The notes beneath the pieces are model-generated. The model did no database searches and was not told the DNA's origin. It saw only the letters and a list, made by a program, of their open reading frames with translations. Shown piece after piece: positions 8,259 through 48,060 of a stretch of 48,060 nt of DNA. The number at the start of each line of letters is the position of its first letter. The first letter of the stretch is position 1. The position numbers were made by a program, and so were the translations under genes. The DNA is from an uncultured Gammaproteobacteria bacterium (lineage in GTDB: Bacteria; Pseudomonadota; Gammaproteobacteria; PS1; Pseudothioglobaceae). The DNA is taken from assembly GCA_937899995.1 (NCBI GenBank), contig CALCCK010000007.1:1-48060 (forward strand), in the 5' to 3' direction.

Positions 8259-8274
8259 GAGGATAGATATAAAT

Positions 8275-8475
8275 ATGTTTACGAAAATTAAAAAATATGT
8301 GGTGACAACATTGATTTTCTCTACAACCACAGTGTTTGCACATGTAACGCCAGAACATGTGCTTGGTTATAGCTATGAGCCATGGAGCTCATGGGATGCT
8401 TTTGGTGTTTTATTGCTAATACTTATCCTTTTTTTTATTGTAATTGCATTATCAAAAGAGATAGATATTGAATGA
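8275..8475 (+). CDS. 66-aa bitopic membrane or exported miniprotein, function unknown
   Basis: AGGAGG lies ~10 nt upstream. An N-terminal hydrophobic signal or anchor (VVTTLIFSTTTVFA) is followed by HVTPEHVLGYSYEPWSSWDAFG and a second TM segment (VLLLILILFFIVIAL). The stop overlaps the ureD ATG (ATGA), implying translational coupling. Confidence 0.55.
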   Translation: MFTKIKKYVVTTLIFSTTTVFAHVTPEHVLGYSYEPWSSWDAFGVLLLILILFFIVIALSKEIDIE

Positions 8476-9332
8476 CATTTATTGCTGAAAAACAGACGAG
8501 ACTTATAGAAGGCCCTATAGATAAAGGTTGGATTGCTAAGTTAGAGCTACAGTTTTCCAAGAGTAAGTCAAAAACTTTTCTCTCGAAAAGAAAACATGTG
8601 GGGCCATTAGTAATTCAAAGACCTTTTTATCCTGAAGGTGATCTATGTCATTTATATTTATTACATCCGCCAGGAGGTGTAGTTGGTGGTGATCAGTTGT
8701 TAATTAAAGTTAATACAGATCCTAATTCTTGCGCATTGATTACCACGCCTGGTGCAACTAAAGTATATCGCACTCTTGAGAATAGACATTCTATTATTAG
8801 TCAAAATTTTTCTATTGAAAATAACAGTTCACTTGAGTGGTTGCCAATGGAAACCATTATTTTTCCTGGGGCGGAATCAAAATTTTCTACTAAATTTTCA
8901 TTATTTGGAAATGCCAAGATTGCAGCATGGGAAATTCATTGTTTAGGTCGACCTGCAATTGGAGAATTGTTTGATAGTGGGAGTTTAAGTTTTAGTTTTG
9001 AATTATGGAGAGACGAATCTCCTATATTACTTGAAAAATTACAAATTGATAATTCTGAGCTGGAAAGCTCTATAGGTCTTAGGGGTTATCCGGTTTTTGC
9101 TACTTTTGTTATTAGTAGTTCTGATGAGGAGGTTCTTGATTTAGTTCGTAGTAATATACATAATAGCGATCATTATGTATGTGGAGCAACTCAAATTGAA
9201 GACTTAATTGTAATAAGGTGTCTTGGTAATAAAACACATTTAATTCAGGAACTTTTTAGAAGGATTTGGAAATTAACTCGTCCATTAGTATTTGGTAGAG
9301 AAGCTTCTGTGCCAAGAATATGGGCAACATAA
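8472..9332 (+). CDS. ureD: Urease accessory protein UreD
   Basis: Size, position and motifs (HLYLLHPPGGVVGGD..., TTPGATKVYR) are typical of UreD/UreH. Confidence 0.85.
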   Translation: MTFIAEKQTRLIEGPIDKGWIAKLELQFSKSKSKTFLSKRKHVGPLVIQRPFYPEGDLCHLYLLHPPGGVVGGDQLLIKVNTDPNSCALITTPGATKVYRTLENRHSIISQNFSIENNSSLEWLPMETIIFPGAESKFSTKFSLFGNAKIAAWEIHCLGRPAIGELFDSGSLSFSFELWRDESPILLEKLQIDNSELESSIGLRGYPVFATFVISSSDEEVLDLVRSNIHNSDHYVCGATQIEDLIVIRCLGNKTHLIQELFRRIWKLTRPLVFGREASVPRIWAT

Positions 9333-9347
9333 ACTATAGAGGTATAT

Positions 9348-10001
9348 ATGAATTTAACACCGCGTGAAAAGGATAAATTAATAATTTTTACTGCCGCTTT
9401 ATTGGCAAAGAAGCGTAAGGATAGGGGTACTAAATTGAACTATCCAGAATCTATTGCTTATATTTCATTCGAAATTTTAGAAGGTGCTCGTGATGGAAGA
9501 AGTGTGGCAGAATTAATGGATTATGGTCGACAATTATTAACAGATAATGATGTTATGCCGGGAGTGTCATCTATGATTCCTGACATCCAGGTTGAAGCTA
9601 CATTTCCTGATGGTACAAAATTAGTTACTGTACATGACCCAATACAGCCTGTTCAGTCTACTCAAAAAACTGAAGGATGTTTAAATGATGTTCTCATTCC
9701 AGGCGAAATACTTATTTCTATTTCGGATGAAATAGAAATTAATTTAGGCCGAACTCGAGTCAGAGTTTTAGTGTCGAATCATGGTGATAGGCCAATTCAA
9801 GTCGGGTCACATTATCATTTTTTTGAAACAAATCAATCCTTAATATTTGATAGAAAAAAGACAAAGGGGTTTAGATTAAATATTCCTTCTGGAACGGCGG
9901 TAAGGTTTGAACCTGGACAAGAGCGTGAAGTTGAGTTAGTTGAGTACGATGGGAATAAAGCTATTTATGGTTTTAATGCTAAAGTAATGGGGAATGTATG
10001 A
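9348..10001 (+). CDS. ureAB: Fused urease gamma plus beta subunit (UreA-UreB in one polypeptide)
   Basis: Residues 1-100 are the gamma subunit ([11 protein letters not shown]...[23 protein letters not shown]). Residues ~117-217 are the beta subunit (IPGEI...[19 protein letters not shown]...[17 protein letters not shown]). A ~16-aa linker joins them with no stop between. Confidence 0.9.
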
Positions 10002-11701
10002 CAAGTATATCTAGGAGAGCTTATGTTGAGATGTATGGCCCCACTACAGGTGATAAAGTTCGTCTAGGTGATACTGAATTATTTATTGAAGTGGAAAAAG
10101 ATTTAACAACTTATGGTGAAGAAGTTAAATTTGGAGGCGGAAAGGTTATTCGCGATGGTATGGGTCAAAGTCAATTATGTAGTAAAGATGTTGTCGATGT
10201 TGTAATTACAAATGCATTAATTCTTGATTATTGGGGAATTATTAAAGCAGATATTGGCATTAAAGATGGGCGTATTGCAGGGATAGGAAAGTCTGGTAAT
10301 CCAGATGTACAACCTAATATTGATATTGTAATTGGTGCAGGTACTGAAGTTATTGCAGCAGAAGGGCAGATTGTGACAGCAGGCGGTATTGACGCACATA
10401 TTCATTTTATTTGTCCTCAGCAAGTCGAGGATGCTTTAATGTCTGGTATCACAACAATGCTAGGTGGTGGGACAGGGCCTTCTGCAGGAACTAATGCAAC
10501 AACATGCACTCCAGGACCATGGAATATACATAGGATGTTAGAAGCCGCCGAGGATTTGCCTATGAATCTTGGTTTTATGGGAAAGGGAAATGCTAGCTTG
10601 CCTTTACCATTAGAGGAGCAAGTATTAGCGGGAGCGATGGGTTTAAAACTTCATGAGGATTGGGGGACAACACCTGCTGCTATTGATAATTGTTTATCAG
10701 TTGCTGAAATATATGATGTCCAAGTCGCAATTCATACAGATACGTTAAATGAATCTGGCTTTGTTGAAGATACAATAGCTGCATTCAAAGGAAGGTCTAT
10801 CCATACTTATCACACTGAAGGAGCTGGTGGTGGTCATGCACCCGATATTATTAAAGCATGTGGTTACAGTAATATACTCCCATCTTCTACCAACCCAACA
10901 CGACCATATACTATTAATACAGTTGACGAGCATTTAGATATGCTTATGGTTTGTCATCATCTAGACCCATCAATAGCTGAAGATGTTGCTTTTGCTGAAT
11001 CACGTATACGAAGAGAAACAATTGCAGCAGAAGATATATTACATGATTTAGGTGCATTTTCTATGATTGCTTCAGATTCGCAAGCGATGGGACGGGTTGG
11101 AGAGGTTATTACAAGGACTTGGCAAACAGCTAATAAAATGAAAATTCAAAGAGGATCATTAGAAGAAGAAATCTCAGATAATGATAATTTTAGAGTAAAG
11201 AGGTATATTGCTAAATATACAATTAATCCCGCTATTACACATGGCATATCTCATGAAGTTGGTTCTATAGAGGTTGGAAAATTGGCTGATTTAGTTTTAT
11301 GGAAGCCTAAATTTTTTGGCGCTAAGCCTGGTGTTATTATTAAAGGCGGAATGATTGTAGCAGCCCCTATGGGAGATCCTAATGCATCAATACCAACTCC
11401 TCAACCAGTTCATTATAGAAAAATGTTTGGGGCATTAGGAATGGCTAGACTCAATACTCGAATGACTTTTTTATCTCAGGCAAGTGTTGAAGATGGAATT
11501 GTAGATCGCTTATCTCTTAAATCGTTAATAGGAATAGTAAAGAATTGTAGATCTGTTACAAAATCATCAATGATTCATAATGATTACCAGCCAAAAATTG
11601 AGGTTGATCCTCAAACATATGAAGTTAAAGCAGATGGGGTATTATTAACTTGTGAACCAGCAGATGAGCTTGCATTGGCGCAAAGATATTTTTTATTTTA
11701 A
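9998..11701 (+). CDS. ureC: Urease alpha (catalytic) subunit UreC
   Basis: [35 protein letters not shown] and MVCHHLD are classic urease active-site motifs. 567 aa. Confidence 0.95.
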
Positions 11702-11703
11702 TT

Positions 11704-12159
11704 ATGAAAGAATTTATTAATAAAATTTCAGCATCTGACAAGATAGATGACACAGTTACATTAGCTTTTGAACAAAGAGTAAAGAGTCGACTTAGAGTGA
11801 AATTAGACAGTAATGAAGATGCGGGTATATTTATGCAAAGAGGCAGCATACTTGAACATGGCGATCTTATTGCAACCAAGGGTGATTTTATTGTCCAAGT
11901 AGTGGCCGCCTCAGAATTATTATCATCAATTTACACAACTGATACATTGTTACTAGCTCAAGTTTGTTACCATCTTGGGAATCGACATATTGAACTTCAA
12001 ATTAAGCCAAATAGTGTGCATTATAAGCATGACCATGTTCTGGATGGGATGGTGCAAAGTTTTGGGTTAAAAGTTATTTCTGAGATGCTACCTTTTGAGC
12101 CAGAACAAGGTGCTTATAATTCTCATTCTTTGGATTATGGACATTCTCACGAACATTGA
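11704..12159 (+). CDS. ureE: Urease accessory metallochaperone UreE
   Basis: Position after ureC, GNRH motif (YHLGNRHIE), short His-rich tail (HSLDYGHSHEH). Confidence 0.85.
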   Translation: MKEFINKISASDKIDDTVTLAFEQRVKSRLRVKLDSNEDAGIFMQRGSILEHGDLIATKGDFIVQVVAASELLSSIYTTDTLLLAQVCYHLGNRHIELQIKPNSVHYKHDHVLDGMVQSFGLKVISEMLPFEPEQGAYNSHSLDYGHSHEH

Positions 12160-12826
12160 ACAACTTAGCTTGTTAAGGTTAATGAGTCTAACAAGCCCAA
12201 CTTTACCTATAGGAGGCTTTACTTATTCTCAGGGCATCGAAAAAGCTGTAGAAGATGGATGGATTGTTAGTATGGATACAGCACACGATTGGCTTAGTGG
12301 GCAATTATTAAATGGCCTAACTTATACGGATCTTCCTATATTAATAAAACTATATGATGCTTTTGTTTGTAATAATAGAATAGATATTATTAAGTGGAAT
12401 CAGATTCTATTAGCATGTCGTGAAACGAGTGAATTAAGACAAGAAGAAGTTAATAGAGGGAGGGCGTTAACGAAAGTATTACAAGGTTTAGACGAATCAA
12501 TAGTTGAAGATTATCAAGAAGTAATTAATACCAATCACTTGTCTGGATTTGCATTGATCAGTGTCCACTGGAATATACCCATTAGAGAGTTATTGTTAGG
12601 TTATAGTTGGTCTTGGCTTGAAAATCAAGTATCAGCTGTTGTCAAGATTATTCCACTCGGGCAAACGCAAGGGCAACAGTTATTACATAAGTTAATTGAG
12701 TTAATTCCTGAAATTATTGATCAATCAATCCAGGTGGATGAACAAGATATTGGCAGATCACAACCAGCCTTGGCAATAATTAGTAGTTTGCATGAGACTC
12801 AATATACAAGAATTTTTAGATCATAG
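12137..12826 (+). CDS. ureF: Urease accessory protein UreF
   Basis: LLRLMSLTSPTLPIGGFTYSQGIE is the UreF N-terminal signature. The ORF-track start at 12095 is a TTG deep inside ureE, so I prefer the ATG at 12137. The start remains uncertain. Confidence 0.8.
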   Translation: MDILTNIEQLSLLRLMSLTSPTLPIGGFTYSQGIEKAVEDGWIVSMDTAHDWLSGQLLNGLTYTDLPILIKLYDAFVCNNRIDIIKWNQILLACRETSELRQEEVNRGRALTKVLQGLDESIVEDYQEVINTNHLSGFALISVHWNIPIRELLLGYSWSWLENQVSAVVKIIPLGQTQGQQLLHKLIELIPEIIDQSIQVDEQDIGRSQPALAIISSLHETQYTRIFRS

Positions 12827-12838
12827 GATATATAGAAA

Positions 12839-13450
12839 ATGGGTAATAATCAGCAGCCATTAAGGGTAGGTGTTGGCGGGCCAGTTGGCTCAGGAAAAAC
12901 TGCTTTGTTAGATGTATTATGTAAAGCTATGCGTGATAGTTATCAGATTGCAGTTGTTACGAATGATATCTACACTAAAGAAGATGCAATGTTTTTAACC
13001 GCAAGTAATGCTTTAGATAAAGATAGGATTATAGGTGTAGAAACAGGCGGCTGTCCTCATACTGCAATTAGGGAGGATGCTTCAATGAATCTCGCAGCAA
13101 TAGAGGATTTATGTCAAAAATTCCCCAATCTAGATATTATTTTTATTGAAAGTGGTGGAGATAATTTATCTGCAACATTTAGTCCAGAATTGGCAGATAT
13201 TACTATTTATGTGATTGATGTAGCAGAAGGTGAAAAAATACCAAGAAAAGGAGGCCCGGGAATCACTCGTTCAGATTTATTAGTGATTAATAAAATTGAT
13301 TTAGCGCCGTATGTTGGCGCTTCGTTAGATGTTATGGAAAGTGATACTAAAAAAATGAGGGGAAAGAAACCTTTCGTCTTTACAAATTTAAAGAAATCTA
13401 TCGGGGTTGAAACAGTAATTAATTTTATTATTAATGAAGGTATGTTGTAA
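12839..13450 (+). CDS. ureG: Urease accessory GTPase UreG
   Basis: P-loop [13 protein letters not shown] motif ([13 protein letters not shown]), and ESGGDNL. Confidence 0.95.
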
Positions 13451-14386: not shown

Positions 14387-14980
14387 ATGTTTACAGGCAT
14401 TGTTCAAGCCATTGGTCAAATCAAAACTAAAGATGTTCACGATAAAGGTGCGGTGTTTAGTTTTGCTTCAAGCGAGCTAGATTTTTCCTCTGTGGCAATC
14501 GGCGATAGCATTGCAGTGAATGGCGTATGTTTAACTGCGATTGAAATCGGTACTGATACATTTAAAGCGGACCTTTCTCAAGAGACACTAGATTGCTCTA
14601 TTTTTGGTGATTTATCGGTTGGTGATGACATCAACCTCGAAAAATCCCTGAGACTTAATCAAGGTATTGACGGCCATCTAGTCAGTGGTCATGTAGACGG
14701 AGAGGGTGAAGTGATCGATAAATACACTGAAGGTGATTCCACACGTTTTAAAATTAGCACGCCACAGAATTTGGTAAAATACATAGCTAGAAAAGGCTCA
14801 ATCACCATGAATGGTGTAAGCTTAACGGTTAACAGTATTGAGAATAATGTGTTTGATGTGAATATCGTTCCTCATACATTGACAGCAACAACATTAGGGC
14901 AACTGAGTGTAGGTAGTAAGATTAACCTTGAGGTTGATATTATTGCTAGGCATTTAGAGCAGTTGTTAAATAAAGATTAA
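14387..14980 (+). CDS. ribE: Riboflavin synthase
   Basis: MFTGIVQAIGQI start and two lumazine-binding repeats (GDSIAVNGVCLT / GSITMNGVSLTV). Confidence 0.9.
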   Translation: MFTGIVQAIGQIKTKDVHDKGAVFSFASSELDFSSVAIGDSIAVNGVCLTAIEIGTDTFKADLSQETLDCSIFGDLSVGDDINLEKSLRLNQGIDGHLVSGHVDGEGEVIDKYTEGDSTRFKISTPQNLVKYIARKGSITMNGVSLTVNSIENNVFDVNIVPHTLTATTLGQLSVGSKINLEVDIIARHLEQLLNKD

Positions 14981-14996
14981 TTAAGTAAGGATTTGA

Positions 14997-16073
14997 ATGA
15001 AAGCCACTATTGAAGAAATCTTAAAAGATTATAAGCAAGGCAAGATGATTATCCTTATGGATGATGAAGATCGTGAAAATGAAGGTGACCTAATTATTCC
15101 TGCAGCTACTTGCACTAAAGAAGATATTAATTTTATGGCCACACATGGTCGTGGTTTGATTTGTTTAACACTCACTCAAGAGCGTTGTAAGCAACTTAAT
15201 TTACCACTGATGGTGGCGCAAAATAACGATGCTAACGGCACTAACTTTACGGTTTCAATTGAAGCTGTAGAGGGTGTAACCACTGGTATTTCAGCTGCAG
15301 ACAGAGCCAAAACCGTATTAGATGCAGTGGCACCAAATGCAACACCTGCTGATATCGTACAGCCAGGTCATATTTTCCCTTTAATGGCACAGCCAGGCGG
15401 TGTGTTAATTCGCGCAGGCCATACTGAAGCAGGTTGTGATCTAGCGCGTTTAGCGGGCTATGAACCAGCTTCCGTGATTGTTGAAATCCTGAATGAAGAT
15501 GGCACCATGGCACGTCGTGATGATTTAGAAATCTTCGCTAAAAAACACAATATTAAATGGGGTACGATTGAAGATTTGATTTCTTATCGTGTTGAAAATG
15601 AAAAAACCATTGAGCGCATTAATGAGCGTGAATTCAAAACCGAGAATGCAACCTTTAGATTGGTTTCATTCCTTGATAGCATTCACAACGAAACCCATCT
15701 AGCCTTAGTTAAAGGCGATATTACTAGTGACGGCACCACTTGTGTGCGTGTACATATGGAAGATACTTTTAAGGACGTATTGCATGAGGCTAGCCCAAGT
15801 TTTGGTGTTGAGTCAGCGCTAAAACATATTGCCAAATCAGACAGCGGTGTGTTCTTACTATTAAGAAAACAAACAGATAAATCTATCCTGCAAAATATTG
15901 ACGCTACAGTTCGAGACAATGGTGGCGATGATATTAAAACTTACGGTGTCGGTGCGCAGATTTTGTCAGATCTAGGTGTTAAGAAAATGAGAATTTTAGG
16001 CAGCCCTAGAAAACTACATGGTCTTAAAGGTTTTGGCTTGGAAGTGGTTGAATACGTTGATACCAAAAAATAA
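14997..16073 (+). CDS. ribBA: 3,4-dihydroxy-2-butanone-4-phosphate synthase fused to a degenerate GTP cyclohydrolase II-like domain (RibBA/RibBX type)
   Basis: The N-terminal half is a canonical RibB ([26 protein letters not shown]). The C-terminal half aligns to RibA but reads [21 protein letters not shown] where RibA has VRVHSECLTGD...RCDCG, so the zinc cysteines are absent. Confidence 0.9.
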
Positions 16074-16078
16074 GGGAA

Positions 16079-16585
16079 ATGATGGAATTTAAATTTGATC
16101 GTGATGCCAATCAAGATTTTTTAGTAAATGCTAAAGTGGCTATTATTGTTGGTTATTTTTACCAAGATATTGGTGATAAATTGTTAGCAGCTACACATGA
16201 AACTTTAGCTAAATACGGTATTAATGAAAACAACGTTAACGTATTTTATGCGCCAGGTGCCTTTGAGATCCCGCTATTGGCTAAGCGTCTAGCTGGGCAA
16301 AAATCAGCCGGTGAAAATCTATACGACGGCATTGTTACTTTGGGTGCTGTGATTAATGGCGAAACTCCGCACTTTGATTTTGTTTGTAATGAGTGCGCCC
16401 GTGGTATAGCTGATGTCTCTTACCAGTATGAAATTCCAACCGCTTTTGGTGTGCTAACCACCTCAAACATGGATCAAGCTATTGGTAGGGCTGGTGGCTA
16501 CAAAGGCAACAAAGGTGAGGAAGCCACTATGGCAATGATTGAAATGCTTTATTTAATGAAGCAAGCTGACAGCCAGGCGTTTTAA
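16079..16585 (+). CDS. ribH: 6,7-dimethyl-8-ribityllumazine synthase
   Basis: Position in the rib operon. VFYAPGAFEIPLLAKRLA and GAVINGETPHFDFVCNE motifs. Confidence 0.9.
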   Translation: MMEFKFDRDANQDFLVNAKVAIIVGYFYQDIGDKLLAATHETLAKYGINENNVNVFYAPGAFEIPLLAKRLAGQKSAGENLYDGIVTLGAVINGETPHFDFVCNECARGIADVSYQYEIPTAFGVLTTSNMDQAIGRAGGYKGNKGEEATMAMIEMLYLMKQADSQAF

Positions 16586-17016: not shown

Positions 17017-20000
17017 TTATTCTAAATTTGGCGAAAGCAGTCTTTCTGCTTGATCAACCGAAATTCCTTTTCTGCTTGCATAATCTTCCACTTGTTCTTG
17101 GTTGATTTTTGCCACACCAAAATAGCGCGATTCAGGATGTGAAAAATACCAGCCACTGACGGATGCTGTTGGCAACATTGCATACGAGCTGGTGAGTGTC
17201 ATGCCGATATTTTTCTCAACATCGAGTAATTCCCATAACTTGTCTTTTTCACTGTGTTCAGGGCACGCAGGGTAGCCAGGGGCTGGGCGAATGCCGCGAT
17301 ATTTTTCTTCAATAAATTCATTGTTGTTGAAGTTTTCATCACTATAGCCCCAAATTTCAGTGCGGAACTTATAATGCATCATTTCCGCAAAAGCCTCGGC
17401 TAAACGATCAGCCACAGCTTTGATCATAATTGAGTTGTAGTCGTCATGATCAGCTTCGAAAGCCTCTACTAGTGGTTCAATGTTAATACCAGCAGTTACT
17501 GCAAATGCACCCATATAATCAGTCACACCATTGTCTTTAGGTGCGATGAAATCACTCAAACAAAAGTTTGGTGTGTTGCCTTTTTTATCCAGCTGTTGGC
17601 GAAGCTGGTTGAGTGTCATTAGTACATCACCGCTCTCATCATAAAGTTCAATATCTTCATTCACGCTATTGGCTGGGAAGATGCCCACAACTGCGTTAGC
17701 GCTTAATAATTTCTCGTCGATGACTTTCTTAAATAGGGCTTGAGCATCTTTATAAAGATCTGAAGCTGATTCACCTACCACTTCATCCGTCAAGATGTCT
17801 GGAAATTTTCCGGCCAACTCCCAAGTACGGAAGAATGGTACCCAGTCGATAAATTCAAAAATCTCAGCTAAGTCGTAGTCTTTATATACTTGTATGCCGA
17901 GTTGATTAGGCGTTGTAATCGCATCAAATTTGAGTTTTGGTTTGTTGGCTCTAGCCTTGTCCATTGAAATAAGCTTACTCTTGCCTTTGTTGGCACGACG
18001 CTGTCTAACCACTTCGTACTCTTCTTTAGTTTCGGCCAGTAGTTTTGGCTTGGCCTCTAATGAAAGTAAGTTAGAGGCGACACCCACTGCTTTGGAGGCG
18101 TCTTGTACGTAAAACACACCTTTGTCATACTCTGGCTCAATCTTAACGGCTGTATGCGCTTTAGAGGTTGTGGCACCACCAATCATTAATGGCAAGCTAA
18201 AGCCTTGGCGTGTCATTTCCTTGGCCACAAATACCATCTCATCAAGTGACGGAGTGATCAGGCCAGACAAGCCAATAATATCCACATTTTCTTTTTTAGC
18301 AGTTTCTAAAATAGTCTCAGTTGGTACCATGACACCAAGATCAATAATCTCATAATTATTACAAGATAACACCACGCCAACAATATTTTTACCAATATCA
18401 TGTACGTCACCTTTAACCGTGGCCATTAGAATTTTTCCTTGCGAGGTGGATGCGCAATCATCTTTTTCAGTTTCTAAGAATGGATCTAAGTAAGCCACTG
18501 ATTTTTTCATTACACGGGCAGATTTAACTACTTGTGGTAAGAACATTTTGCCAGCACCAAATAAATCACCCACCACATTCATACCATCCATCAACGGACC
18601 TTCAATCACCAATATAGGGCGTCCAAGCTTATCAAATGCCTCTTGAGTGTCTTCGTCAATAAATTTAGTAATACCTTTAATCAGGGCATGTTGTAAGCGT
18701 TTTTCTACTTCCCACGAGCGCCATTCTAAATCCTTCAGATTTTCTTTTTGTTCGCCAGTACCAGAGAATTTTCCAGCGATATCAACCAGGCGCTCACCTG
18801 CATTTTCATCGCTATTGAGCACCACATCTTCTACTGCTTTTTTAAGTTCAGGATCAATATCATCATAAACCACCAGCTGACTAGCGTTAACAATACCCAT
18901 AGTCATGCCCGCTTTTACAGCGTGGTATAAAAATACTGAGTGGATCGCTTCACGTACCGGGTTGTTACCCCTAAATGAGAACGATACATTAGATACACCA
19001 CCTGATATTTTCGCATAAGGTAGGTTTTTGGTTATCTCGCGCGTGGCTTCAATAAAGTCTACGCCGTAGTTATTGTGCTCTTCAATACCAGTGGCAATGG
19101 CAAAGATATTAGGATCAAAGATAATGTCTTCTGCTGGGAAGCCAACTTCATTAACCAAGATGTTATAAGCCTCTGTGCAAATCTCAATCTTGCGCTCTTG
19201 CGTGTCAGCCTGGCCAACTTCATCAAACGCCATAACGATAATCGCCGCACCATAACGCTTACAAAGTTTGGCATATTTAACAAAATTCTCTTTGCCTTCT
19301 TTGAGTGAGATTGAGTTAACAATTGCTTTGCCTTGTGTGCATTTAAGGCCGGCTTCAATAATATCCCATTTAGATGAGTCCACCATCAGTGGCACTTTAG
19401 AGATATCGGGCTCAGAGGCGATTAGATTCATAAAACGGACCATTGCCGCTTTACCATCGAGCATACCTTCATCCATATTGATATCAATCACTTGCGCACC
19501 TTCTTCTACTTGTGCACGGCAAATATCCAGCGCTTCTTCAAATTCTTCGTTGAGAATCAAACGCTTAAATTTAGCGGAGCCGGTGACATTAGCACGCTCA
19601 CCTATATTTACAAATAAAGCTTCATCGCCAATATTAAATGCTTCTAGGCCAGATAATCGACACTTTGGTTTAATATTAGGAATTTTTCTAGGTGCTAAAC
19701 CCTCAATCGCATCAGCAATCGCCTTAATATGCTCAGGCGTAGAACCACAACAACCACCCAAAATATTCACCAAGCCTGAACTTGCCCATTCACCTACTTG
19801 CTCACTCATGGTGATGGCACCTAGATCATATTCACCAAATTCATTTGGCAAACCAGCATTTGGGTGTGCAGACACATAGGTGTTGGCTATGCGAGACATC
19901 TCAGCCACATATTGGCGTAATAAATCAGGGCCTAATGCACAGTTAAGGCCAATAGAGATAGGGTTAGCATGACGCAATGAATTATAAAATGCTTCCGTCA

Positions 20001-20670
20001 TTTGCCCAGATAGGGTACGACCAGAGGCGTCTGTGATGGTACCTGAGATCATGATTGGAAGTTCAACACCGTCATCTTCGAAGACTTGTTGAACGGCAAA
20101 AATAGCCGCCTTGGCATTTAGCGTATCAAAAATAGTTTCAATTAAGATGATGTCTGAACCACCCTCGATCAAACCACGAGTTGATTCCATATACACGTCA
20201 ACCAACTCATCAAAGGTGACATTTCTAAAACCAGGGTCATTCACATCTGGTGAGAGTGAACAAGTACGCGAAGTCGGGCCAATAACACCCGCTACAAACC
20301 GTGGCTTATTTTCGGTAGAAAATTCGTCACAAGCAGTCTTCGCAAGGCGAGCACTTTCTACATTGATTTCATAAGCAAATTCTTCCATCTTGTAATCAGA
20401 CATAGAAGTTTTAGTTGCGTTAAAGGTATTTGTTTCAACAATGTCAGCGCCTACCTCTAGATATGAGCGGTGAATATCCTGAATTATTTTTGGCTGAGTG
20501 AGCGATAAAAGGTCATTATTACCTTGTACCAAAATATGCCAATCTTTAAAGCGTTCACCACGATACTGCTCTTCGCTGAGCTTATGCTTTTGAATCATGG
20601 TGCCCATAGCACCATCTAGTACTAAGATTCGTTGCTCTAAAAGGGATTGTAATATCTGTTTTGTCGACAT
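17017..20670 (-). CDS. metH: Cobalamin-dependent methionine synthase MetH
   Basis: All modules are present: Hcy-binding ([18 protein letters not shown]), pterin-binding, B12-binding ([10 protein letters not shown]) and the AdoMet activation domain. I set the start at [14 protein letters not shown] (ATG at 20670) rather than the ORF-track extension to 20745. Confidence 0.95.
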
Positions 20671-20757
20671 GCTGGGTATTATACCCAAAGCTAACAAGCA
20701 CCCACAGGGCATAAATTCGGCTTTATAATGAACGCAGTATTTCAATACAAAGTAACT

Positions 20758-35021: not shown

Positions 35022-35607
35022 GAATACAAAAATACAAAACCATGGCGGTGCTAGAGCGGGCGCTGGACGTAAGAAAAATTCGGGTAAATTTAAGGAAAAT
35101 ACCAAGGTGATGCGCGTACCGGCTAGCTTGGTCGATACGGTCAAATCAACACTTGAGGTGTATAGGTCACAATTAAAGTCTGATGTTGTCGTGTCCTTGC
35201 CGGCTGATAATGCAGCTGATATTACTACTCCTATTTTTACCTCACGTGTGCAGGCGGGTTTTCCCTCCCCTGCAGATGATCACTTAGAGGATAGGCTTGA
35301 TTTAAACAAGTATTTGATTCATCATCGAGAGGCTACTTTTTTTGTGCGTGCACAAGGTGAATCTATGCTTGGTGCAGGGATCCATCCTGGTGATATTCTA
35401 GTGGTGGATAAGTCTCTTATTGCTAAAAGCGGTAAGATAGTGATTGCCGTGGTGGATGGTGAGTTTACAGTTAAGCGTCTTCATAAATACAAGGGCAAGA
35501 TTACTTTAAAAGCAGAAAACCCTGAGTTTGACGATATTGTCATTAGCGAGGGTAGTGAGCTTATTATTTGGGGTGTGGTTACCTCGGTAATCCACCAATA
35601 TGCCTAA
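35020..35607 (+). CDS. umuD: UmuD-like S24 self-cleaving peptidase (Pol V accessory subunit) with a ~55-aa basic N-terminal extension
   Basis: Ala-Gly cleavage site in [10 protein letters not shown], catalytic Ser in QGESM, Lys in FTVKRL. Extension: [37 protein letters not shown]. 8-nt overlap with umuC. Confidence 0.85.
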
Positions 35608-36850
35608 GTTTAATCAACAAAAGTTTGCACTGGTTGATTGTAATAATTTTTATGCTTCGTGCGAACGAGTGTTTGATCCAAAATTAGAACGACAACCTAT
35701 CGTTGTACTTAGTAATAATGATGGCTGTGTGATTGCACGTTCGAATGAAGCTAAAGCGCTCGGTATTAAGATGGGCGTGCCGTATTATCAAATCAAGGAT
35801 TTAATGATTGATAAGTCGGTGGTGATTAAGTCGTCAAACTATCCTTTGTATGGTGATATGTCGTCACGAGTGATGAGTATTGTTGGTGAGTATGCACCTA
35901 TTCAAGAAGTGTATTCGATTGATGAGAGTTTTTTAGATTTATCAGGGCTGATGGTGAATTTGAATGCGCATATGCAAGCACTTAAAAGTCAAGTTAAATT
36001 ATGGACAGGGGTGCCGGTTTGTATTGGCATTGGTCATACCAAGGTGCGGGCAAAGTTGGCTAATCGTATTGCTAAGATTTACCCAAGATTTAATGGGGTG
36101 TTTGATATTGATTTATTGTCTGACAGTCGATTTGAGAAGTTGTTAGCTTCAGTTGATGTGGGGGATATTTGGGGTGTAGGGTCAAAATCAGCGTTTAAGC
36201 TTAATCGTGTTGGCATTACAACGGCACTCAATTTTTACAAGGCGGATATTGGTATTATTGAAACCTTACTAGGGGTGAATGGAAAACGCATCTATCGAGA
36301 GCTGTATGGGTATTCTTGCTTGGCGATAGAGGAGATAGCACCACCAAGACGACAGATTGTGTTTTCTCGTTCGTTTGGGAATGATTTAAGCGCTTTTGAT
36401 GAGATTAACCAAGCATTGACCATATTGACAAGAAAAGCCGTTAATAAGCTTAATAGGCAGTCTTTGGCAACCACCTCGATGAGCGTGTTTATCTGTACCA
36501 ATCCTTTTAAGAAGAATATGCCTTACATTAACTTGTCAAAAACCATTGGCATGAGTGTACCAATTAGCGATGAAAAATTACTCATCCCTTTGTGTGCAAA
36601 ATTATTAAAGCAAATTTATGAGCCAGGTTATGGGTTTTACAAAGGTGGTGTGATAATGGGTAATTTAACTTTAGACAAAAGCCAGCAAGATTTGTTTGTG
36701 GCTAATGACAAGAATACTCAATTAAGCAATCATCCCTATGGGCATTTATTACGTTATGCTAGTGAACTGGGTAATGATCGCTGGTTGCCAAGGGCAGAAT
36801 TTCAATCCAATCGATTCACAACACATTGGAATGAGTTGCTAAGTGTATGA
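35600..36850 (+). CDS. umuC: Y-family DNA polymerase V catalytic subunit UmuC
   Basis: [19 protein letters not shown]...[25 protein letters not shown] is collinear with my recollection of the E. coli UmuC N terminus. Confidence 0.9.
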
Positions 36851-39469: not shown

Positions 39470-41569
39470 ATGAGTTTATTTAAAAAAAGAATCTTAATTA
39501 GTGACTTGTGTAAAGTGCTGGAAGACTACATGCCTAAAGATCAGGTCGAGAGCGTGTATCAGGCTTATATTGTTGCTGCAACAGCTCATGATGGGCAATA
39601 TCGCCGCTCAGGCGAGGCTTATGTATTTCACCCAATTAATGTGGCCATGATTTTGGCTGAGTTAAAGCTGGATTATTACTGTATTACCGCAGCGTTACTA
39701 CATGATTGCATTGAAGATACCTCTTTAACTCAAGAAGACATTGTTAAAGATTTTGGTGAAGAGGTGGCGCATATTGTACAAGGCGTCTCAAAACTTACTG
39801 GTTTAGAGTTTCATTCTAATATTGATAAACAAGCGCAAAATTTTAGAAAGCTATTTTTAGCCATGAGTACCGACATGCGAGTGATGATGATCAAGTTGGC
39901 TGATCGTCTACACAACATGCGAACGCTTAAATCCATGAATCGAGATAAGCAGATTAGGATTGCTAAAGAAACAGCTGAAATCCATGCACCTATTGCTAGA
40001 CGTTTAGGCTTGAATAGTATTAGGGTTGAGTTAGATAATTTGTGCTTTGAAATTACACATCCTTATCGTTACAAGGTGTTGTTACACCAAATTAAAAAAC
40101 AATGTGGTAATCGAAAAAAGATTATTAAACACATTCAAAAGGAGATTGAAGCACGTCTTCAGCAAGAAGAGCTAACCCAAGTAAGTATTACAGGTCGTAG
40201 AAAGCAACCTTTTAGTATCTATAAGAAGATGAAGATTAAGCAGTTAAAGTTTTCTCAAGTACTTGATATGTATGCTTTTAGGGTGGTAGTGGATGATGTT
40301 GCACAGTGTTATCAAGCACTGGGCATCATTCATAATTTATATAAGCCATTACCAGGTAAGTTTAAAGATTACGTTGCTTTGCCTAAGTCTAACGGTTATC
40401 AGTCGCTACATACGGTATTGTTTGGCCCAAATAAGATTTTTATTGAAGTACAAATTCGTTCAGAAGATATGCACTTTATATCAGAGTACGGTATTGCTGC
40501 ACACTGGCATTACAAAAGTAGCAGTAGCAATCCATCTGAATTAGCCAGTAACTGGTTAGGGTCCTTGTTAGACATTCAGAAAAATTCAGGCACTTCGATA
40601 GATTTTTTAGAGGAAACAAAAATCGATTTATTCCCTTCCGAAGTGTTTGTTTTTACTCCGCAAGGAGATATTATTCAGATGCCTTATAAATCAACTGTAT
40701 TAGATTTTGCCTATGCCATTCATACCAATGTAGGTAATCGAACCCTTAAGGCTAAAGTAGACCAGGTTAGTGCTCCTATTTCAAGCGAACTCAAATCAGG
40801 TCAAACTATTGAAATTATTACCCATAAAAAAGCCAAACCACACCCATCTTGGTTGCAAATTGCAGTCACAGTTAAGGCTAGGTCTTCTATTAAAGCAATA
40901 TTGAAAGAAGAGTCTACTTCTGAGTTAATACAGTTAGGAGAATATTTACTTACTAATGCACTGCATTACCAAGGCGGTAATAAACCGATTAACGAAGAAA
41001 AATGGCAACTCTGCTTAGAAGATTTAAAGTGTACTTCCAAAGAAGAGCTTTATATGAAAATTGGATTATCTGAAATCCTGATTTCTATCGCACTTAATAA
41101 GCTTCAAAGTGAAAATGGCAATGACGTGATTAAAAGCATTAGTATTAGGCAGACACAAGGTAAATCTATTAGTTTTGCACGTTGTTGTTATCCAATTCCT
41201 GGGGATAAGGTAGCGGGTATATTAACCAATATTAAAGGTTTGGTGATGCATCGTTCTGATTGTGGAAATTTAATCCACGCTAAGCAAAAAAACGAGCAAT
41301 GGCTAGATATTGATTGGCAAGCAGATGATAGTGAAGAATTCGAGGCGTTAATTAGAGTGAAAGTAGAAAACCGTCGAGGTATGTTGGCCTCAATCGCTAA
41401 TGTCATTGCTAATATTAATATTAATATTGAGCATTTAGAAGTCGAAGAAAGAGACCATTCAATGAAGGCATTAAATCTAGTGATTAGTGTGGCAAACACC
41501 TCTCAATTAGATGAGGTGATGTATGAGATTAAAAGCCTTGAGTTTGTACAACTGGTAGAGCGGATTTAG
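39470..41569 (+). CDS. spoT: Bifunctional (p)ppGpp synthetase/hydrolase, SpoT-type
   Basis: Intact HD hydrolase motif (HPINVAMIL...LHDCIEDT), a RelA/SpoT synthetase domain (YKPLPGKFKDYVALPKSNGYQSLHT), and TGS and ACT regions. Confidence 0.9.
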   Translation: MSLFKKRILISDLCKVLEDYMPKDQVESVYQAYIVAATAHDGQYRRSGEAYVFHPINVAMILAELKLDYYCITAALLHDCIEDTSLTQEDIVKDFGEEVAHIVQGVSKLTGLEFHSNIDKQAQNFRKLFLAMSTDMRVMMIKLADRLHNMRTLKSMNRDKQIRIAKETAEIHAPIARRLGLNSIRVELDNLCFEITHPYRYKVLLHQIKKQCGNRKKIIKHIQKEIEARLQQEELTQVSITGRRKQPFSIYKKMKIKQLKFSQVLDMYAFRVVVDDVAQCYQALGIIHNLYKPLPGKFKDYVALPKSNGYQSLHTVLFGPNKIFIEVQIRSEDMHFISEYGIAAHWHYKSSSSNPSELASNWLGSLLDIQKNSGTSIDFLEETKIDLFPSEVFVFTPQGDIIQMPYKSTVLDFAYAIHTNVGNRTLKAKVDQVSAPISSELKSGQTIEIITHKKAKPHPSWLQIAVTVKARSSIKAILKEESTSELIQLGEYLLTNALHYQGGNKPINEEKWQLCLEDLKCTSKEELYMKIGLSEILISIALNKLQSENGNDVIKSISIRQTQGKSISFARCCYPIPGDKVAGILTNIKGLVMHRSDCGNLIHAKQKNEQWLDIDWQADDSEEFEALIRVKVENRRGMLASIANVIANININIEHLEVEERDHSMKALNLVISVANTSQLDEVMYEIKSLEFVQLVERI

Positions 41570-45862: not shown

Positions 45863-47737
45863 CTAAGGCTGAAACTTAGAAGTCATCGGGTAGCGACGCT
45901 CTTTACCAAAGGCATTCTGACTGACTTTAGGCCCTGGAGCAGATTGTCGGCGTTTATATTCATTGTTAAGTACCATACGACTTATACGCTTAACCGTATC
46001 TTGATTAAAGCCTTGCTGAATAATGTGTTGAATCGATTGTTTGTGTTCAATAAACAATTCTAAAATCGCATCCAGTTCTTCATAAGGCGGTAAAGAATCT
46101 TGATCTACTTGGTTGGGTGCAAGCTCTGCAGAAGGCTCACGATCAATCACACGCCCAGGAATAACATAATCAATGGAGTTACGATAATTAGCTAGACGAT
46201 AAACCAAGGTTTTAGCAATATCTTTAAGTGGGGCGAAGCCACCAGACATATCACCATACAGGGTGGTATAACCTACCGCCATTTCAGATTTGTTACCCGT
46301 CGTGAGTACAATTTTGCCAGACTTATTAGAGACTGCCATCAATAGGGTGCCACGAATACGTGCCTGTAAGTTTTCTTCAGTAGTATCGGATTCAGCGCCT
46401 GCAAATAAAGGGCTAAGCTGTGTGTTGAAGCTATCCATCATTGAATGAATGTTAATCTCATGGTAATCAACTCCCATACTGCTAGCCTGGGCTTTAGCGT
46501 CTTCCAAACTCATGCTAGAGGTGTATTCATACGGCATCATAATGGCTTGCACATGCTCAGCACCTAGGGCATCAACGGCAATGGCCAGAGTCAATGCTGA
46601 ATCAATACCACCGGACAAGCCAATCACGGCACCATTAAACACGCCATTTTTTTCAATGTAGTCTCTAGTTGATAATACCAAAGCGTCATAAACAGTTTTT
46701 TCAATCGACTCATCAGTGTTTTGTAGAATGGGCTGATCTAGGGAATGAGTTAAGACTTGAAAGAAGGGTAATTGGTGCGTGATTGTGCCACTAGTATCCA
46801 TAACAAAGGATCCACCATCAAATACCAGCTCGTCTTGCCCACCAACAGCATTAACATAAATGAGGGTGATATTATTCTCCAACACCCTTTGTCGCATGGT
46901 TTTAATTCTTTGTTGATGCTTGCCTAACTGAAAGGGTGAGGCGTTAAGACTAATCACGGTTTGAGCACCATGACTAACTGCAGCACTAATGGGTGAAATT
47001 TCCCATGCATCTTCACAAATCACCACACCAATTTTGGTTTGTTGGCATTCGAATACGAACGAATCTGTACCGGGTTCAAAATACCGTTTTTCATCAAACA
47101 CGCCGTAATTAGGCAAATATTGTTTGTGATAAGTACTTACACGGCCTTGTTGCATTAAGTAAGCACTGTTGTGTAAATGACCATCAACACGTGCAGGTGC
47201 GCCAAATAAAATACTGATGTCTTCAGGCAGTTGAGTGAGTATGTACTCAATAGCAGATTCGATCTGATCAATAAAGCCCTCACGTAGTAATAAGTCTTCT
47301 GCTGGGTAACCAATTAGCGCTAATTCTGGAAAAACCAGTAAATGGGTGCCAGATTCATTCGCATCATGCGCTAGAGTGATGATCGTCTGTGCGTTATTGT
47401 TTAAATCACCAACAGTAGGGTTAATTTGTGCAATATCAATTTTGATAGGCTCTGAGCCATTTGAAAGGTTTTCTAGCTGCTCCTGCCAAAATATGGTCTT
47501 CGATTTATTACCTGTGAGTTTTGCATGCTCAAGTTTGGTGTTGGCTACCACTTCAGCAGGATTAACACCTAAAATACTGGCAAATTGCCAGGCATGGGTT
47601 TCAGATAAGGCTGTTTTTCCTGATTTATATTTACTTAGGTTAGACTGATTAATGTCATATTTCTGAGCTATCTTATAGTCCGAAAGTCCAGTCTTTTTGC
47701 GTACTTTAGCGAGATAGTCTTTGGTTTTGTTTGCCAT
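45863..47737 (-). CDS. nadE: Glutamine-dependent NAD+ synthetase (nitrilase-like glutaminase plus synthetase domains) fused in frame to an N-terminal ~95-aa XRE/Cro-CI-type HTH domain
   Basis: Residues ~98-624: IKIDIAQINPTVGDL, VFPELALIGY, VVICEDAW (Glu-Lys-Cys glutaminase) and the GLSGGIDSAL ATP-PPase loop. Residues 1-95: GLSDYKIAQKYDINQSNLSKYKSGKTALSETHAWQFASILGVNPAEV (HTH). There is no in-frame ATG/GTG/TTG near the NadE domain boundary. Confidence 0.85.
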   Translation of the reverse strand: MANKTKDYLAKVRKKTGLSDYKIAQKYDINQSNLSKYKSGKTALSETHAWQFASILGVNPAEVVANTKLEHAKLTGNKSKTIFWQEQLENLSNGSEPIKIDIAQINPTVGDLNNNAQTIITLAHDANESGTHLLVFPELALIGYPAEDLLLREGFIDQIESAIEYILTQLPEDISILFGAPARVDGHLHNSAYLMQQGRVSTYHKQYLPNYGVFDEKRYFEPGTDSFVFECQQTKIGVVICEDAWEISPISAAVSHGAQTVISLNASPFQLGKHQQRIKTMRQRVLENNITLIYVNAVGGQDELVFDGGSFVMDTSGTITHQLPFFQVLTHSLDQPILQNTDESIEKTVYDALVLSTRDYIEKNGVFNGAVIGLSGGIDSALTLAIAVDALGAEHVQAIMMPYEYTSSMSLEDAKAQASSMGVDYHEINIHSMMDSFNTQLSPLFAGAESDTTEENLQARIRGTLLMAVSNKSGKIVLTTGNKSEMAVGYTTLYGDMSGGFAPLKDIAKTLVYRLANYRNSIDYVIPGRVIDREPSAELAPNQVDQDSLPPYEELDAILELFIEHKQSIQHIIQQGFNQDTVKRISRMVLNNEYKRRQSAPGPKVSQNAFGKERRYPMTSKFQP

Positions 47738-47738
47738 G

Positions 47739-47791
47739 ATTTTTTACCTAAAATTCAATGTATTTTTTACCTATTATAGTTATTTTTACCA
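47739..47791 (-). promoter_or_regulatory. Three direct repeats (sense TAGGTAAAAAAT) across the nadE promoter, 5' UTR and RBS; candidate operator array
   Basis: On the plus strand, the exact 12-mer ATTTTTTACCTA occurs at 47739-47750 and 47762-47773, and an imperfect copy ATTTTTACCA at 47782-47791. Spacing is 23 and ~20 bp. Confidence 0.45.
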
Positions 47792-47801
47792 CTATTGTCA
47801 G
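47773..47801 (-). promoter_or_regulatory. Putative sigma70 promoter of the HTH-nadE gene
   Basis: On the minus strand: CTGACA (47801-47796), 17-nt spacer, TATAAT (47778-47773). About 35 nt upstream of the ATG. Confidence 0.45.
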
Positions 47802-47893
47802 TCAATCATTGTAGTTAAAAAATACTAGTAGTAGTAAAAGTACCATAATTACAACATAAGTTATTGATTTAACATTAAATAATCAATAGTTAA

Positions 47894-48060
47894 AGATCGG
47901 AAGAGCGTCGTGTAGGGAAAGAGTGTAGATCTCGGTGGTCGCCGTATCATTAAAAAAAAAAAAAAAGAGAAAAAATAAAAAAAAAACACAAAAAAACAAA
48001 AGAAGAAGTTTACTAGAACAGCATCAAAGTCACAGAGGCGCCTGCACGAGACCCGACTCG
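47894..48060. other. Non-biological sequence: reverse complement of the Illumina TruSeq universal (P5) adapter (47894-47951) plus poly-A-rich read-through junk
   Basis: Exact AGATCGGAAGAGCGTCGTGTAGGGAAAGAGTGTAGATCTCGGTGGTCGCCGTATCATT, followed by A homopolymers. Confidence 0.95.

What the first reader, a model, noticed from the sequence alone, without database searches (positions are those of the whole stretch)
45863..47801. In-frame fusion of a Cro/CI (XRE)-type HTH domain to glutamine-dependent NAD+ synthetase, with three direct repeats across its own promoter, TSS and RBS
The 624-aa ORF comprises a complete two-domain NadE (from about residue 98, IKIDIAQINPTVGDL) preceded by ~95 residues. 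Those residues read like a stand-alone phage-type HTH regulator: KKTGLSDYKIAQKYDINQSNLSKYKSGKTALSETHAWQFASILGVNPAEVVANTKLEHAKL. From memory this resembles a ~100-aa stand-alone HTH family; that is unverified. There is no ATG, GTG or TTG in frame near the domain junction, and no room for a stop, RBS and start. On this sequence the fusion is therefore the only way to express NadE. Upstream, a good promoter (CTGACA-17-TATAAT) is interleaved with three direct repeats of sense TAGGTAAAAAAT. Two copies are exact 12-mers 23 bp apart and the third is imperfect. One copy lies in the -35/-10 spacer, one over the predicted TSS and one over the RBS. This is an autoregulatory layout. I am not aware of an NAD-biosynthetic enzyme carrying its own DNA-binding domain of this type; the known NAD regulators NadR, NiaR and NrtR are different architectures. 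The protein could be an enzyme-regulator that couples NAD(+)/NaAD or glutamine status to transcription.
Basis: partly seen in the sequence, partly recalled or inferred. Interest (0 to 1): 0.65.

Follow-up and report, generated by a model that had tools for sequence, protein, structure and literature searches.

The report
NAD synthetase fused to its repressor

Summary
ORF 45863-47737(-) encodes a 624-aa protein with three parts. These are an XRE/HTH_3 module (aa 1-96), a nitrilase-type glutaminase and an NAD synthetase. No in-frame start could make NadE without the HTH.

The fusion is not an assembly chimera. More than 100 protein clusters (67-93% identical, 623-626 aa) show the same full-length architecture across the SUP05 clade, including complete genomes. 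More divergent fusions (42-65% identical to the divergent fusion P0158) exist in other gene neighbourhoods. The HTH is under purifying selection as strong as the enzyme (dN/dS 0.03-0.23 versus 0.05-0.11).

The repeat picture needs revising. The conserved unit is a 14-bp box, TAGKTAAAAAATAC. One copy abuts the -10 hexamer and covers the predicted start site. One inverted copy lies 52 bp upstream. Two weaker copies lie about 20 bp from these. The copy over the ribosome-binding site is exact in only three of the sequences compared, with one near-exact. Exact boxes occur 25 times in 4,981 bp upstream of fused nadE genes and never in 171,674 bp elsewhere.

Best reading: a bifunctional enzyme-repressor that regulates its own gene. 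DNA binding, any metabolite effector and any wider regulon are untested.

The window end (47894-48060) is Illumina adapter plus junk.

The parts
45863..47737 (-). HTH-NadE gene: 624 codons plus stop
   Evidence: Full-length orthologues 67-93% identical.
47450..47737 (-). N-terminal DNA-binding module, aa 1-96. Five-helix XRE/HTH_3 core (helices at aa 4-16, 20-26, 31-39, 46-56, 60-75) plus a sixth helix (78-93) carrying the family-conserved FW. Predicted recognition helix INQSNLSKY.
   Evidence: Pfam HTH_3 31.5 bits. phrog_4441 E=3e-14 over aa 3-93. AlphaFold2 pLDDT 88.5. Foldseek hits to XRE-fold regulators at probability 0.93-1.0. INQSN and KY invariant in 26 fusions. dN/dS 0.03-0.23.
46733..47449 (-). 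Nitrilase-type glutaminase domain, about aa 97-335. Putative Glu138-Lys205-Cys241 triad is invariant.
   Evidence: Pfam CN_hydrolase. Invariant columns. PDB 5KHA and 4F4H align from query residues 94-97.
45944..46690 (-). NAD synthetase (ATP pyrophosphatase) domain, aa 350-598. SGGIDS loop at aa 375-380.
   Evidence: Pfam NAD_synthase 243 bits. Invariant S375-S380.
47773..47801 (-). Sigma-70-type promoter: -35 CTGACA (47801-47796), 17-nt spacer, -10 TATAAT (47778-47773).
   Evidence: 11 of 12 consensus matches. AACTATAAT invariant in 15 SUP05-type upstream regions.
47760..47773 (-). Box C: TAGGTAAAAAATAC. It starts at the last T of the -10 hexamer and covers the predicted transcription start. 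Strong and conserved.
   Evidence: Exact. At -35/-36 from the ATG in all SUP05-type loci with 0-2 mismatches.
47812..47825 (+). Box A: TAGTTAAAAAATAC, inverted relative to box C, 52 bp start to start, upstream of the -35. Strong and conserved.
   Evidence: Exact. At -88/-89 in 13 of the 14 related SUP05-type loci and at -97 in L013, with 0-1 mismatches. The same 14-mer is exact upstream of the divergent fusions in L015, L140 and L142.
47779..47794 (-). The window has A5 where relatives have A6.
   Evidence: GTGGTAAAAAATAA in relatives, 20 bp upstream of box C.
47829..47842 (+). Box D' (weak, inverted): TAGTAGTAAAAGTA, 17 bp start to start beyond box A in this window (19-20 bp in relatives).
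   Evidence: Inverted-repeat pair I5. Block conserved at 0.86 mean pairwise identity.
47739..47750 (-). Copy over the ribosome-binding site: TAGGTAAAAAAT. It contains the AGG Shine-Dalgarno. Exact only in a few close relatives.
   Evidence: Exact here and in L005 and L011, near-exact in L004, different in the other relatives.
47894..48060 (.). Not biological. Illumina TruSeq universal adapter (47894-47951, minus strand, 58/58) followed by poly-T junk to the window end.

Best explanation
HTH-NadE is a bifunctional enzyme-repressor (a 'trigger enzyme'). An ancestor of the SUP05 clade and its relatives fused a phage-derived XRE-type repressor module of about 95 aa onto the N-terminus of a type-2, Burkholderia/Acinetobacter-like glutamine-dependent NAD+ synthetase. 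The enzyme part keeps all catalytic motifs and is presumably the cell's working NAD synthetase. The HTH module most likely recognises 14-bp boxes (TAGKTAAAAAATAC) at the gene's own promoter. One box abuts the -10 hexamer and covers the start site. One inverted box lies five helical turns upstream. Two weaker boxes lie about two turns from these. Occupancy would block RNA polymerase and give negative autoregulation of nadE.

Shown here: the fusion, its conservation, purifying selection on the HTH, and the conservation and exclusivity of the boxes. Inferred: DNA binding, repression, and the stoichiometry (probably several HTH domains brought together by the oligomeric enzyme). Speculative: that NAD+, which allosterically inhibits type-2 NadE enzymes (PMC7196632), or a substrate modulates binding.
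For: Fusion and domains. Conservation of the full-length architecture in more than 100 clusters, including contigs of 1.2-1.95 Mb. More divergent fusions of 613-628 aa, and a clean break to HTH-less homologues of about 541 aa at 83-84% coverage. No internal start. HTH dN/dS 0.03-0.23 against 0.05-0.11 for the enzyme. Recognition helix INQSNLSKY almost invariant, and INQSNFNKY in the most divergent fusion. XRE fold. Phage HTH family. Box blocks about 0.86-0.9 identical between species, against about 0.55 for adjacent non-coding DNA and pS of 0.4-0.7. Exact 14-mer 25 times in 4,981 bp upstream of fused nadE and 0 times in 171,674 bp elsewhere in the same sequences. The same box is present upstream of divergent fusions with different neighbours, next to -10-like hexamers. 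No Rfam RNA element in the leader. Retained in a 1.23-Mb reduced clam-symbiont genome (L010).
Against: There is no experimental evidence of DNA binding or repression. Box A lies where an A/T-rich UP element would sit, about -58 to -45 from the predicted start, and all boxes are A-tract rich in a genome of about 37% G+C. Part of the conservation could therefore reflect promoter architecture. Box orientation and spacing differ between lineages, so the binding geometry is unclear, and two readings cannot be told apart: direct repeats 20 bp apart, or a 15-bp palindrome TAACTATAATAGKTA around the -10. The conservation counts are not phylogenetically independent within SUP05; only about 4-5 lineages are independent. 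Neither the regulon nor the effector could be tested.
Confidence: 0.7

Rival explanations
1. The HTH domain is a working DNA-binding domain, but the conserved upstream blocks are ordinary promoter architecture (UP element, spacer, discriminator) and not its operator. Its real targets lie elsewhere in the genome, for example at other NAD genes or at a prophage remnant.
For: Box A sits at the UP-element position and is A/T rich. The -10 region is invariant in any case. No genome-wide scan was possible.
Against: The same exact 14-mer recurs on both sides of the promoter in inverted orientation. It also recurs upstream of divergent fusions whose promoter layout and neighbours differ. There are no exact copies in 171,674 bp of other sequence, which includes many other promoters.
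Confidence: 0.15
2. The N-terminal module no longer binds DNA and serves a protein-level role such as oligomerisation, partner binding or enzyme regulation. The boxes are bound by another factor or by none.
For: Some XRE-fold domains act in protein-protein contacts, for example antitoxins and Stl. The Pfam HTH_3 score falls below threshold in many orthologues.
Against: The most conserved stretch is the predicted recognition helix. Its conservation parallels that of the DNA box across lineages. Stand-alone relatives sit in a phage-like setting of small divergent genes, with repeated similar motifs upstream.
Confidence: 0.1
3. Assembly artefact: a chimeric join, or a hidden frameshift or stop, falsely fuses a small regulator gene to nadE. 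The adapter sequence about 160 bp away makes this worth asking.
For: An Illumina adapter and junk lie at 47894-48060. The databases contain short HTH-only proteins of 93-160 aa.
Against: The identical architecture appears in more than 100 independent clusters from many assemblies and complete genomes. The short proteins come from contigs in which nadE itself is split by frameshifts, and in L016 pabB is also broken. The DNA between adapter and gene aligns with relatives.
Confidence: 0.01

Closest known systems
NadR of Enterobacteria (HTH + NMN adenylyltransferase + ribosylnicotinamide kinase)
   Same: An NAD-pathway enzyme with an N-terminal HTH that represses NAD genes, and the enzyme domains stay active (PMC2330246). 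Functionally this is the nearest precedent.
   Different: The enzyme domains are unrelated: NMNAT and RNK against glutaminase and NAD synthetase. The operator is different: an 18-bp palindrome TGTTTA-N6-TAAACA against TAGKTAAAAAATAC boxes. NadR controls nadA, nadB and pncB, whereas here only the enzyme's own promoter is implicated.
Type-2 (dimeric) glutamine-dependent NAD+ synthetase, e.g. Burkholderia thailandensis 4F4H and Acinetobacter baumannii 5KHA
   Same: The enzyme part is 47-49% identical and matches NCBIfam NF010588 above its cut-off. This class is feedback-inhibited by NAD+ and regulated by PII (PMC7196632).
   Different: The known members start at the glutaminase domain and have no DNA-binding module. 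Their nearest HTH-less relatives cover only 83-84% of the fusion.
Controller (C) protein-restriction endonuclease fusions, and other XRE-HTH-enzyme fusions
   Same: An XRE-type HTH fused in frame to an enzyme whose own promoter carries the operator (PMC3850674). C.AhdI and C.BclI are among the structural matches.
   Different: They belong to restriction-modification systems, not housekeeping cofactor biosynthesis, and their operators are paired palindromes.
BirA, PutA and RbkR (bifunctional enzyme-repressors, 'trigger enzymes')
   Same: An active metabolic enzyme and a repressor of its own pathway in one polypeptide (PMC2330246, PMC5397151).
   Different: They use other DNA-binding folds (winged HTH, ribbon-helix-helix) and other enzymes, and their effector logic is established. 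Here it is unknown.
Phage stand-alone HTH proteins: phrog_4441, phrog_638, and weakly the CTXphi RstR family
   Same: The whole 93-aa module (HTH plus two extra helices with the conserved FW) aligns end to end with these phage proteins of about 98-145 aa. The nearest stand-alone relatives are 44-50% identical.
   Different: Many of the stand-alone proteins continue into a hydrophobic tail, several ending in ILC. In the fusion the tail is replaced by NadE. The RstR model scores 27.7 bits against a cut-off of 80.

Membership tests
Glutamine-dependent NAD+ synthetase (NCBIfam NF010588 / PRK13981; type-2 NadE-Gln) | Whole-protein score above the curated cut-off | tested here: met
   737.9 bits against a cut-off of 479, over aa 97-623.
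Glutamine-dependent NAD+ synthetase (NCBIfam NF010588 / PRK13981; type-2 NadE-Gln) | Nitrilase-type Glu-Lys-Cys triad in the glutaminase domain | tested here: met
   E138 (FPELA), K205 (HKQ) and C241 (ICED) are invariant in 26 fusions. Assigning them as the triad rests on the known motifs of the family.
Glutamine-dependent NAD+ synthetase (NCBIfam NF010588 / PRK13981; type-2 NadE-Gln) | PP-loop SGGxDS in the synthetase domain | tested here: met
   S375-G-G-I-D-S380 is invariant. Pfam NAD_synthase 243 bits.
Glutamine-dependent NAD+ synthetase (NCBIfam NF010588 / PRK13981; type-2 NadE-Gln) | Dimeric quaternary structure and NAD+ feedback inhibition | not testable with these tools
   Inferred only from 47-49% identity to 4F4H and 5KHA and from PMC7196632.
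XRE / Cro-CI HTH (Pfam HTH_3, PF01381) | Score above Pfam's gathering threshold | tested here: met
   31.5 bits against 23, aa 9-62. Many orthologues fall just below threshold.
XRE / Cro-CI HTH (Pfam HTH_3, PF01381) | Five-helix lambda-repressor-like fold | tested here: met
   AlphaFold2 model with pLDDT 88.5. Foldseek probability 0.93-1.0 to lambda cI N-terminal domain, C.AhdI, C.BclI, ClgR and HigA, TM-score about 0.5-0.67 on the target. E-values are weak (0.03 or higher), as expected for a domain of about 65 aa.
XRE / Cro-CI HTH (Pfam HTH_3, PF01381) | Sequence-specific DNA binding | not testable with these tools
   Indirect only: conserved boxes at its own promoter.
Bifunctional enzyme-repressors (trigger enzymes: NadR, BirA, PutA) | DNA-binding domain and catalytically competent enzyme in one polypeptide | tested here: met
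Bifunctional enzyme-repressors (trigger enzymes: NadR, BirA, PutA) | Operator at its own or its pathway's promoters | tested here: inconclusive
   Conserved boxes overlap the nadE promoter, but binding is not shown and other NAD genes could not be examined.
Bifunctional enzyme-repressors (trigger enzymes: NadR, BirA, PutA) | DNA binding modulated by a substrate or product | not testable with these tools
   No data.
NadR | NMN adenylyltransferase and ribosylnicotinamide kinase domains | tested here: not met
   Only HTH_3, CN_hydrolase and NAD_synthase were found.
NrtR / NiaR | Nudix plus winged HTH (NrtR); 3H-domain plus HTH (NiaR) | tested here: not met
   No such domains.
RstR family repressor (NCBIfam NF041951) | Score above the curated cut-off | tested here: not met
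   27.7 bits against a cut-off of 80.

The most novel reading that the evidence does not exclude
HTH-NadE is the NAD+-sensing master regulator of the SUP05 clade, a fifth type of bacterial NAD regulator after NadR, NiaR, NrtR and NadQ. NAD+ bound at the allosteric site of the type-2 NadE scaffold would act as co-repressor. The enzyme that makes NAD would then switch off its own gene, and possibly nadA, nadB and nadC, when NAD is plentiful.
Probability: 0.2. Interest if true: 0.75.

Novelty: new variant of a known kind. Interest (0 to 1): 0.52.

Why it matters
Little is known about how bacteria outside a few model groups control NAD synthesis. The SUP05 clade (Ca. Thioglobus, Ruthia/Ruthturnera, and mussel and clam symbionts) is among the most abundant sulfur-oxidising lineages in oxygen-minimum zones and at vents, and it has small genomes with few regulators.

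A housekeeping cofactor enzyme that carries its own repressor domain would be a compact solution to homeostasis. This one is kept even in a 1.2-Mb symbiont genome. It is also a clear case of a phage repressor module being domesticated, and an easy system to test with EMSA and reporter assays.

The HTH in these proteins is not reflected in the source names I saw: they are named plain 'NAD+ synthase', and many orthologues have no precomputed HTH_3 hit.

Tried and rejected
(1) Chimera or frameshift artefact, prompted by the adapter at 47894-47951. Rejected.

(2) RNA element or riboswitch in the leader. No Rfam match at E<=1, and the predicted leader is only about 30 nt.

(3) Regulon search. 118 of the 120 stretches returned had no HTH-NadE nearby and are best read as chance hits in unrelated A/T-rich DNA. 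This was uninformative.

(4) Other NAD genes in the window. Candidates suggested by ORF length (534, 367 and 285 aa) turned out to be unrelated. The only other near-matches to the box in the window, at 21325 and 32756 with two mismatches each, are at chance level.

(5) Word-indexed search with the N-terminus alone. It returned only truncated or frameshifted fragments. The exhaustive representatives search was needed to find stand-alone relatives and the divergent fusion.

(6) A short upstream ORF in the leader. Not conserved.

(7) Oligomeric state from De Ingeniis 2012 (PMC3376133). No information there. PMC7196632 was used instead.
Full report
**1. What is in the sequence**

The minus-strand ORF 45863-47737 encodes 624 aa. 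Pfam finds HTH_3 at aa 9-62 (31.5 bits, threshold 23), CN_hydrolase at 102-335 and NAD_synthase at 350-598. The NCBIfam equivalog NF010588 'NAD+ synthase' scores 738 bits (cut-off 479) over aa 97-623.

The closest solved structures are the glutamine-dependent NAD+ synthetases of Acinetobacter baumannii (5KHA) and Burkholderia thailandensis (4F4H). They are 47-49% identical and align only from query residues 94-97 onward. The first ~95 residues are therefore an add-on.

In the first 200 codons the only in-frame ATG/GTG/TTG are codons 1, 63 and 195. None of 26 aligned orthologues has a Met at the junction. NadE cannot be made without the HTH.

The promoter CTGACA-17-TATAAT (47801-47773, minus strand) matches 11 of 12 positions.

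**2. Is the fusion an artefact?**

The question had to be asked, because the window ends in non-biological sequence. Positions 47894-47951 on the minus strand are an exact 58/58 match to the Illumina TruSeq universal adapter. Poly-T junk follows to 48060.

The artefact stops there. The 156 bp between adapter and start codon align base for base with the orthologous intergenic region of relatives.

The full-length architecture is found in more than 100 protein clusters. They are 67-93% identical, 623-626 aa long and cover 100% of the query. They come from NCBI, JGI, ENA and Logan assemblies, including contigs of 1.2-1.95 Mb. Named sources include Ca. Thioglobus, Ca. Ruthia/Ruthturnera, the Bathymodiolus thioautotrophic gill symbiont and a Catillopecten gill symbiont. 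The window is thus a SUP05-clade genome fragment.

Database proteins that look like stand-alone HTH versions (93-160 aa) come from contigs in which nadE is split by frameshifts, and in L016 pabB is also broken.

**3. How far the fusion extends**

An exhaustive search with the 97-aa module found a divergent fusion, P0158. It is 622 aa, its N-terminus is 43% identical, and it lies on a circular 1.58-Mb contig beside ppsA and gcvP rather than pabB.

Searching with P0158 found further fusions of 613-628 aa that are 42-65% identical to it. After these comes a clean break to HTH-less homologues of about 541 aa (Acinetobacter and others), which cover only 83-84% of the query. All fused forms are each other's nearest relatives. 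This fits a single fusion event.

**4. Is the HTH module functional?**

Against 14 orthologues, dN/dS for codons 2-62 is 0.03-0.23 (0.12 or below in 12 of the 13 pairs that could be computed; L012 gives 0.226). The enzyme part gives 0.05-0.11.

The predicted recognition helix I29-N-Q-S-N33...K36-Y37 is invariant in 26 fusions. The most divergent one has INQSNFNKY.

AlphaFold2 gives six helices with pLDDT 88.5 for the module alone, and the same helices in the full-length model. Foldseek matches XRE-fold regulators at probability 0.93-1.0, including lambda cI N-terminal domain, C.AhdI, C.BclI, ClgR, HigA and ImmR. The E-values are weak, as expected for so small a domain.

The whole module, aa 3-93, aligns end to end with the phage family phrog_4441 (98 positions, E=3e-14) and with phrog_638. 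The nearest stand-alone relatives are 44-50% identical. One of them lies in a phage-like setting of small divergent genes.

**5. The DNA repeats, revisited**

I aligned 15 SUP05-type upstream regions. Two blocks are far better conserved than their surroundings. Mean pairwise identity is 0.86-0.9 in the blocks and about 0.55 in the -35 region and the leader. Synonymous sites in the gene differ at 40-70%.

The recurring unit is a 14-bp box, TAGKTAAAAAATAC.
- Box C (47760-47773, minus strand) starts at the last T of the -10 hexamer and covers the predicted start site.
- Box A (47812-47825, plus strand) is its inverted copy, 52 bp away, about five helical turns.
- Weaker copies lie about 20 bp from these, about two turns: box B in the -35/-10 spacer and box D' beyond box A.

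Elsewhere that position holds a different Shine-Dalgarno region.

The same exact 14-mer also lies upstream of the divergent fusions in L015, L140 and L142. There it appears with other spacings and orientations, again next to -10-like hexamers and with extra degenerate copies.

Across the window and 20 loci, exact boxes occur 25 times in 4,981 bp upstream of fused nadE genes. They occur 0 times in the remaining 171,674 bp. These counts are not phylogenetically independent within SUP05. The divergent lineages add about four independent confirmations.

An alternative parsing is that the -10 hexamer sits inside a 15-bp near-palindrome, TAACTATAATAG(G/T)TA, which is perfect in L014. I could not decide between the two readings.

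**6. Mechanism**

The best-supported reading is a bifunctional enzyme-repressor. The enzyme keeps the Glu-Lys-Cys glutaminase triad and the SGGIDS loop. It is retained in a reduced 1.23-Mb symbiont genome (L010). It is therefore presumably the working NAD synthetase.

The HTH would bind the boxes and occlude the -10 hexamer and start site, giving negative autoregulation.

The enzyme part belongs with the type-2 NadE-Gln enzymes. These are dimeric and are feedback-inhibited by NAD+ (PMC7196632). That offers a plausible route by which NAD+ could act as co-repressor, but it remains speculation.

Rival readings keep about 25% of the probability between them. One is that the boxes are promoter architecture, including an UP element. 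The other is that the HTH now has a non-DNA role. No Rfam element is present in the leader.

**7. Comparison with what is known, and novelty**

Enzyme-repressor fusions are a known kind. Examples are NadR, BirA, PutA and RbkR (PMC2330246, PMC5397151) and C-protein-restriction endonuclease fusions (PMC3850674).

This protein is not a NadR, NrtR or NiaR, because none of their defining domains is present. It fails the RstR family cut-off.

Four full-text searches found no paper that describes an HTH-NadE fusion, or that mentions nadE together with SUP05-clade names. The sources that name these proteins call them plain 'NAD+ synthase'.

I rate it a new variant of a known kind. It is a neat, testable case in an ecologically important clade, but not a conceptual surprise given NadR.

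**8. Limits**

No binding data exist. The binding geometry is unresolved.

Noticed in passing
window 47894-48060: Exact 58-nt Illumina TruSeq universal adapter (47894-47951, minus strand), followed by poly-T and low-complexity junk to the window end. The contig end is a library or assembly artefact and should be trimmed. Genuine DNA ends at 47893.
   Followed up: yes
P0153, P0154, P0156, P0160, P0193, P0199, P0202, P0209, P0211: Stand-alone relatives of the HTH module (about 100-160 aa). Several carry a hydrophobic stretch, and all end in a conserved C-terminal [F/I/Y/C]-I-L-C motif. This could be a membrane anchor or a modification signal on a phage-type repressor family. Unexplained.
   Followed up: no
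window 47765-47779 (minus strand); L014 about 2960-2974: The -10 hexamer lies inside a 15-bp near-palindrome TAACTATAATAG(G/T)TA, which is perfect in L014. This is an alternative parsing of the operator, as a dimer site centred on the -10.
   Followed up: partly
L013 about 2955-2980 (Bathymodiolus thermophilus symbiont): A 10-bp insertion after the -10 hexamer duplicates the box (TATAATAAGTTAAAATAGTTAAAAAATAC). It adds a copy and shifts the upstream boxes by about one helical turn.
   Followed up: no
window 47779-47794: Box B has a run of five A where the related loci have a six-position run (six A in most). Box B to box C spacing is therefore 19 bp here and 20 bp elsewhere. This could be a real indel or a homopolymer error close to the artefactual contig end.
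   Followed up: no
L138 1224-1316: Upstream of the stand-alone relative P0153, which sits in a phage-like setting of small divergent genes, the 12-mer GGAAAATATACT occurs twice. It resembles the core of the nadE box (GGTAAAAAATAC) and hints that the whole family reads similar sites.
   Followed up: partly
L016 and L017: Database 'HTH-only' proteins of 119-140 aa, some named NAD+ synthase, come from frameshifted assemblies. In L016 pabB is also broken. They are not natural split genes.
   Followed up: yes
window 2717-13450: Complete urea ABC transporter (urtABCDE), followed by urease structural and accessory genes (fused gamma/beta subunit, alpha subunit, ureE, ureG). This is a urea-utilisation island in this SUP05 genome.
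   Followed up: partly
window 14387-16585, 17017-20745(-), 35600-36850, 39470-41569: Riboflavin synthesis genes (ribE, ribBA, ribH), cobalamin-dependent methionine synthase metH (1242 aa), a UmuC-like translesion polymerase, and a SpoT/RelA homologue. No NAD gene other than nadE is in the window.
   Followed up: partly
L002 2406-2762; L012 2408-2761; L017 1908-2261: In many relatives a small Sel1-repeat protein of 117-118 aa is transcribed divergently from nadE. It is missing from L013 and L014, yet the boxes are kept there, so the boxes go with nadE and not with the neighbour.
   Followed up: partly
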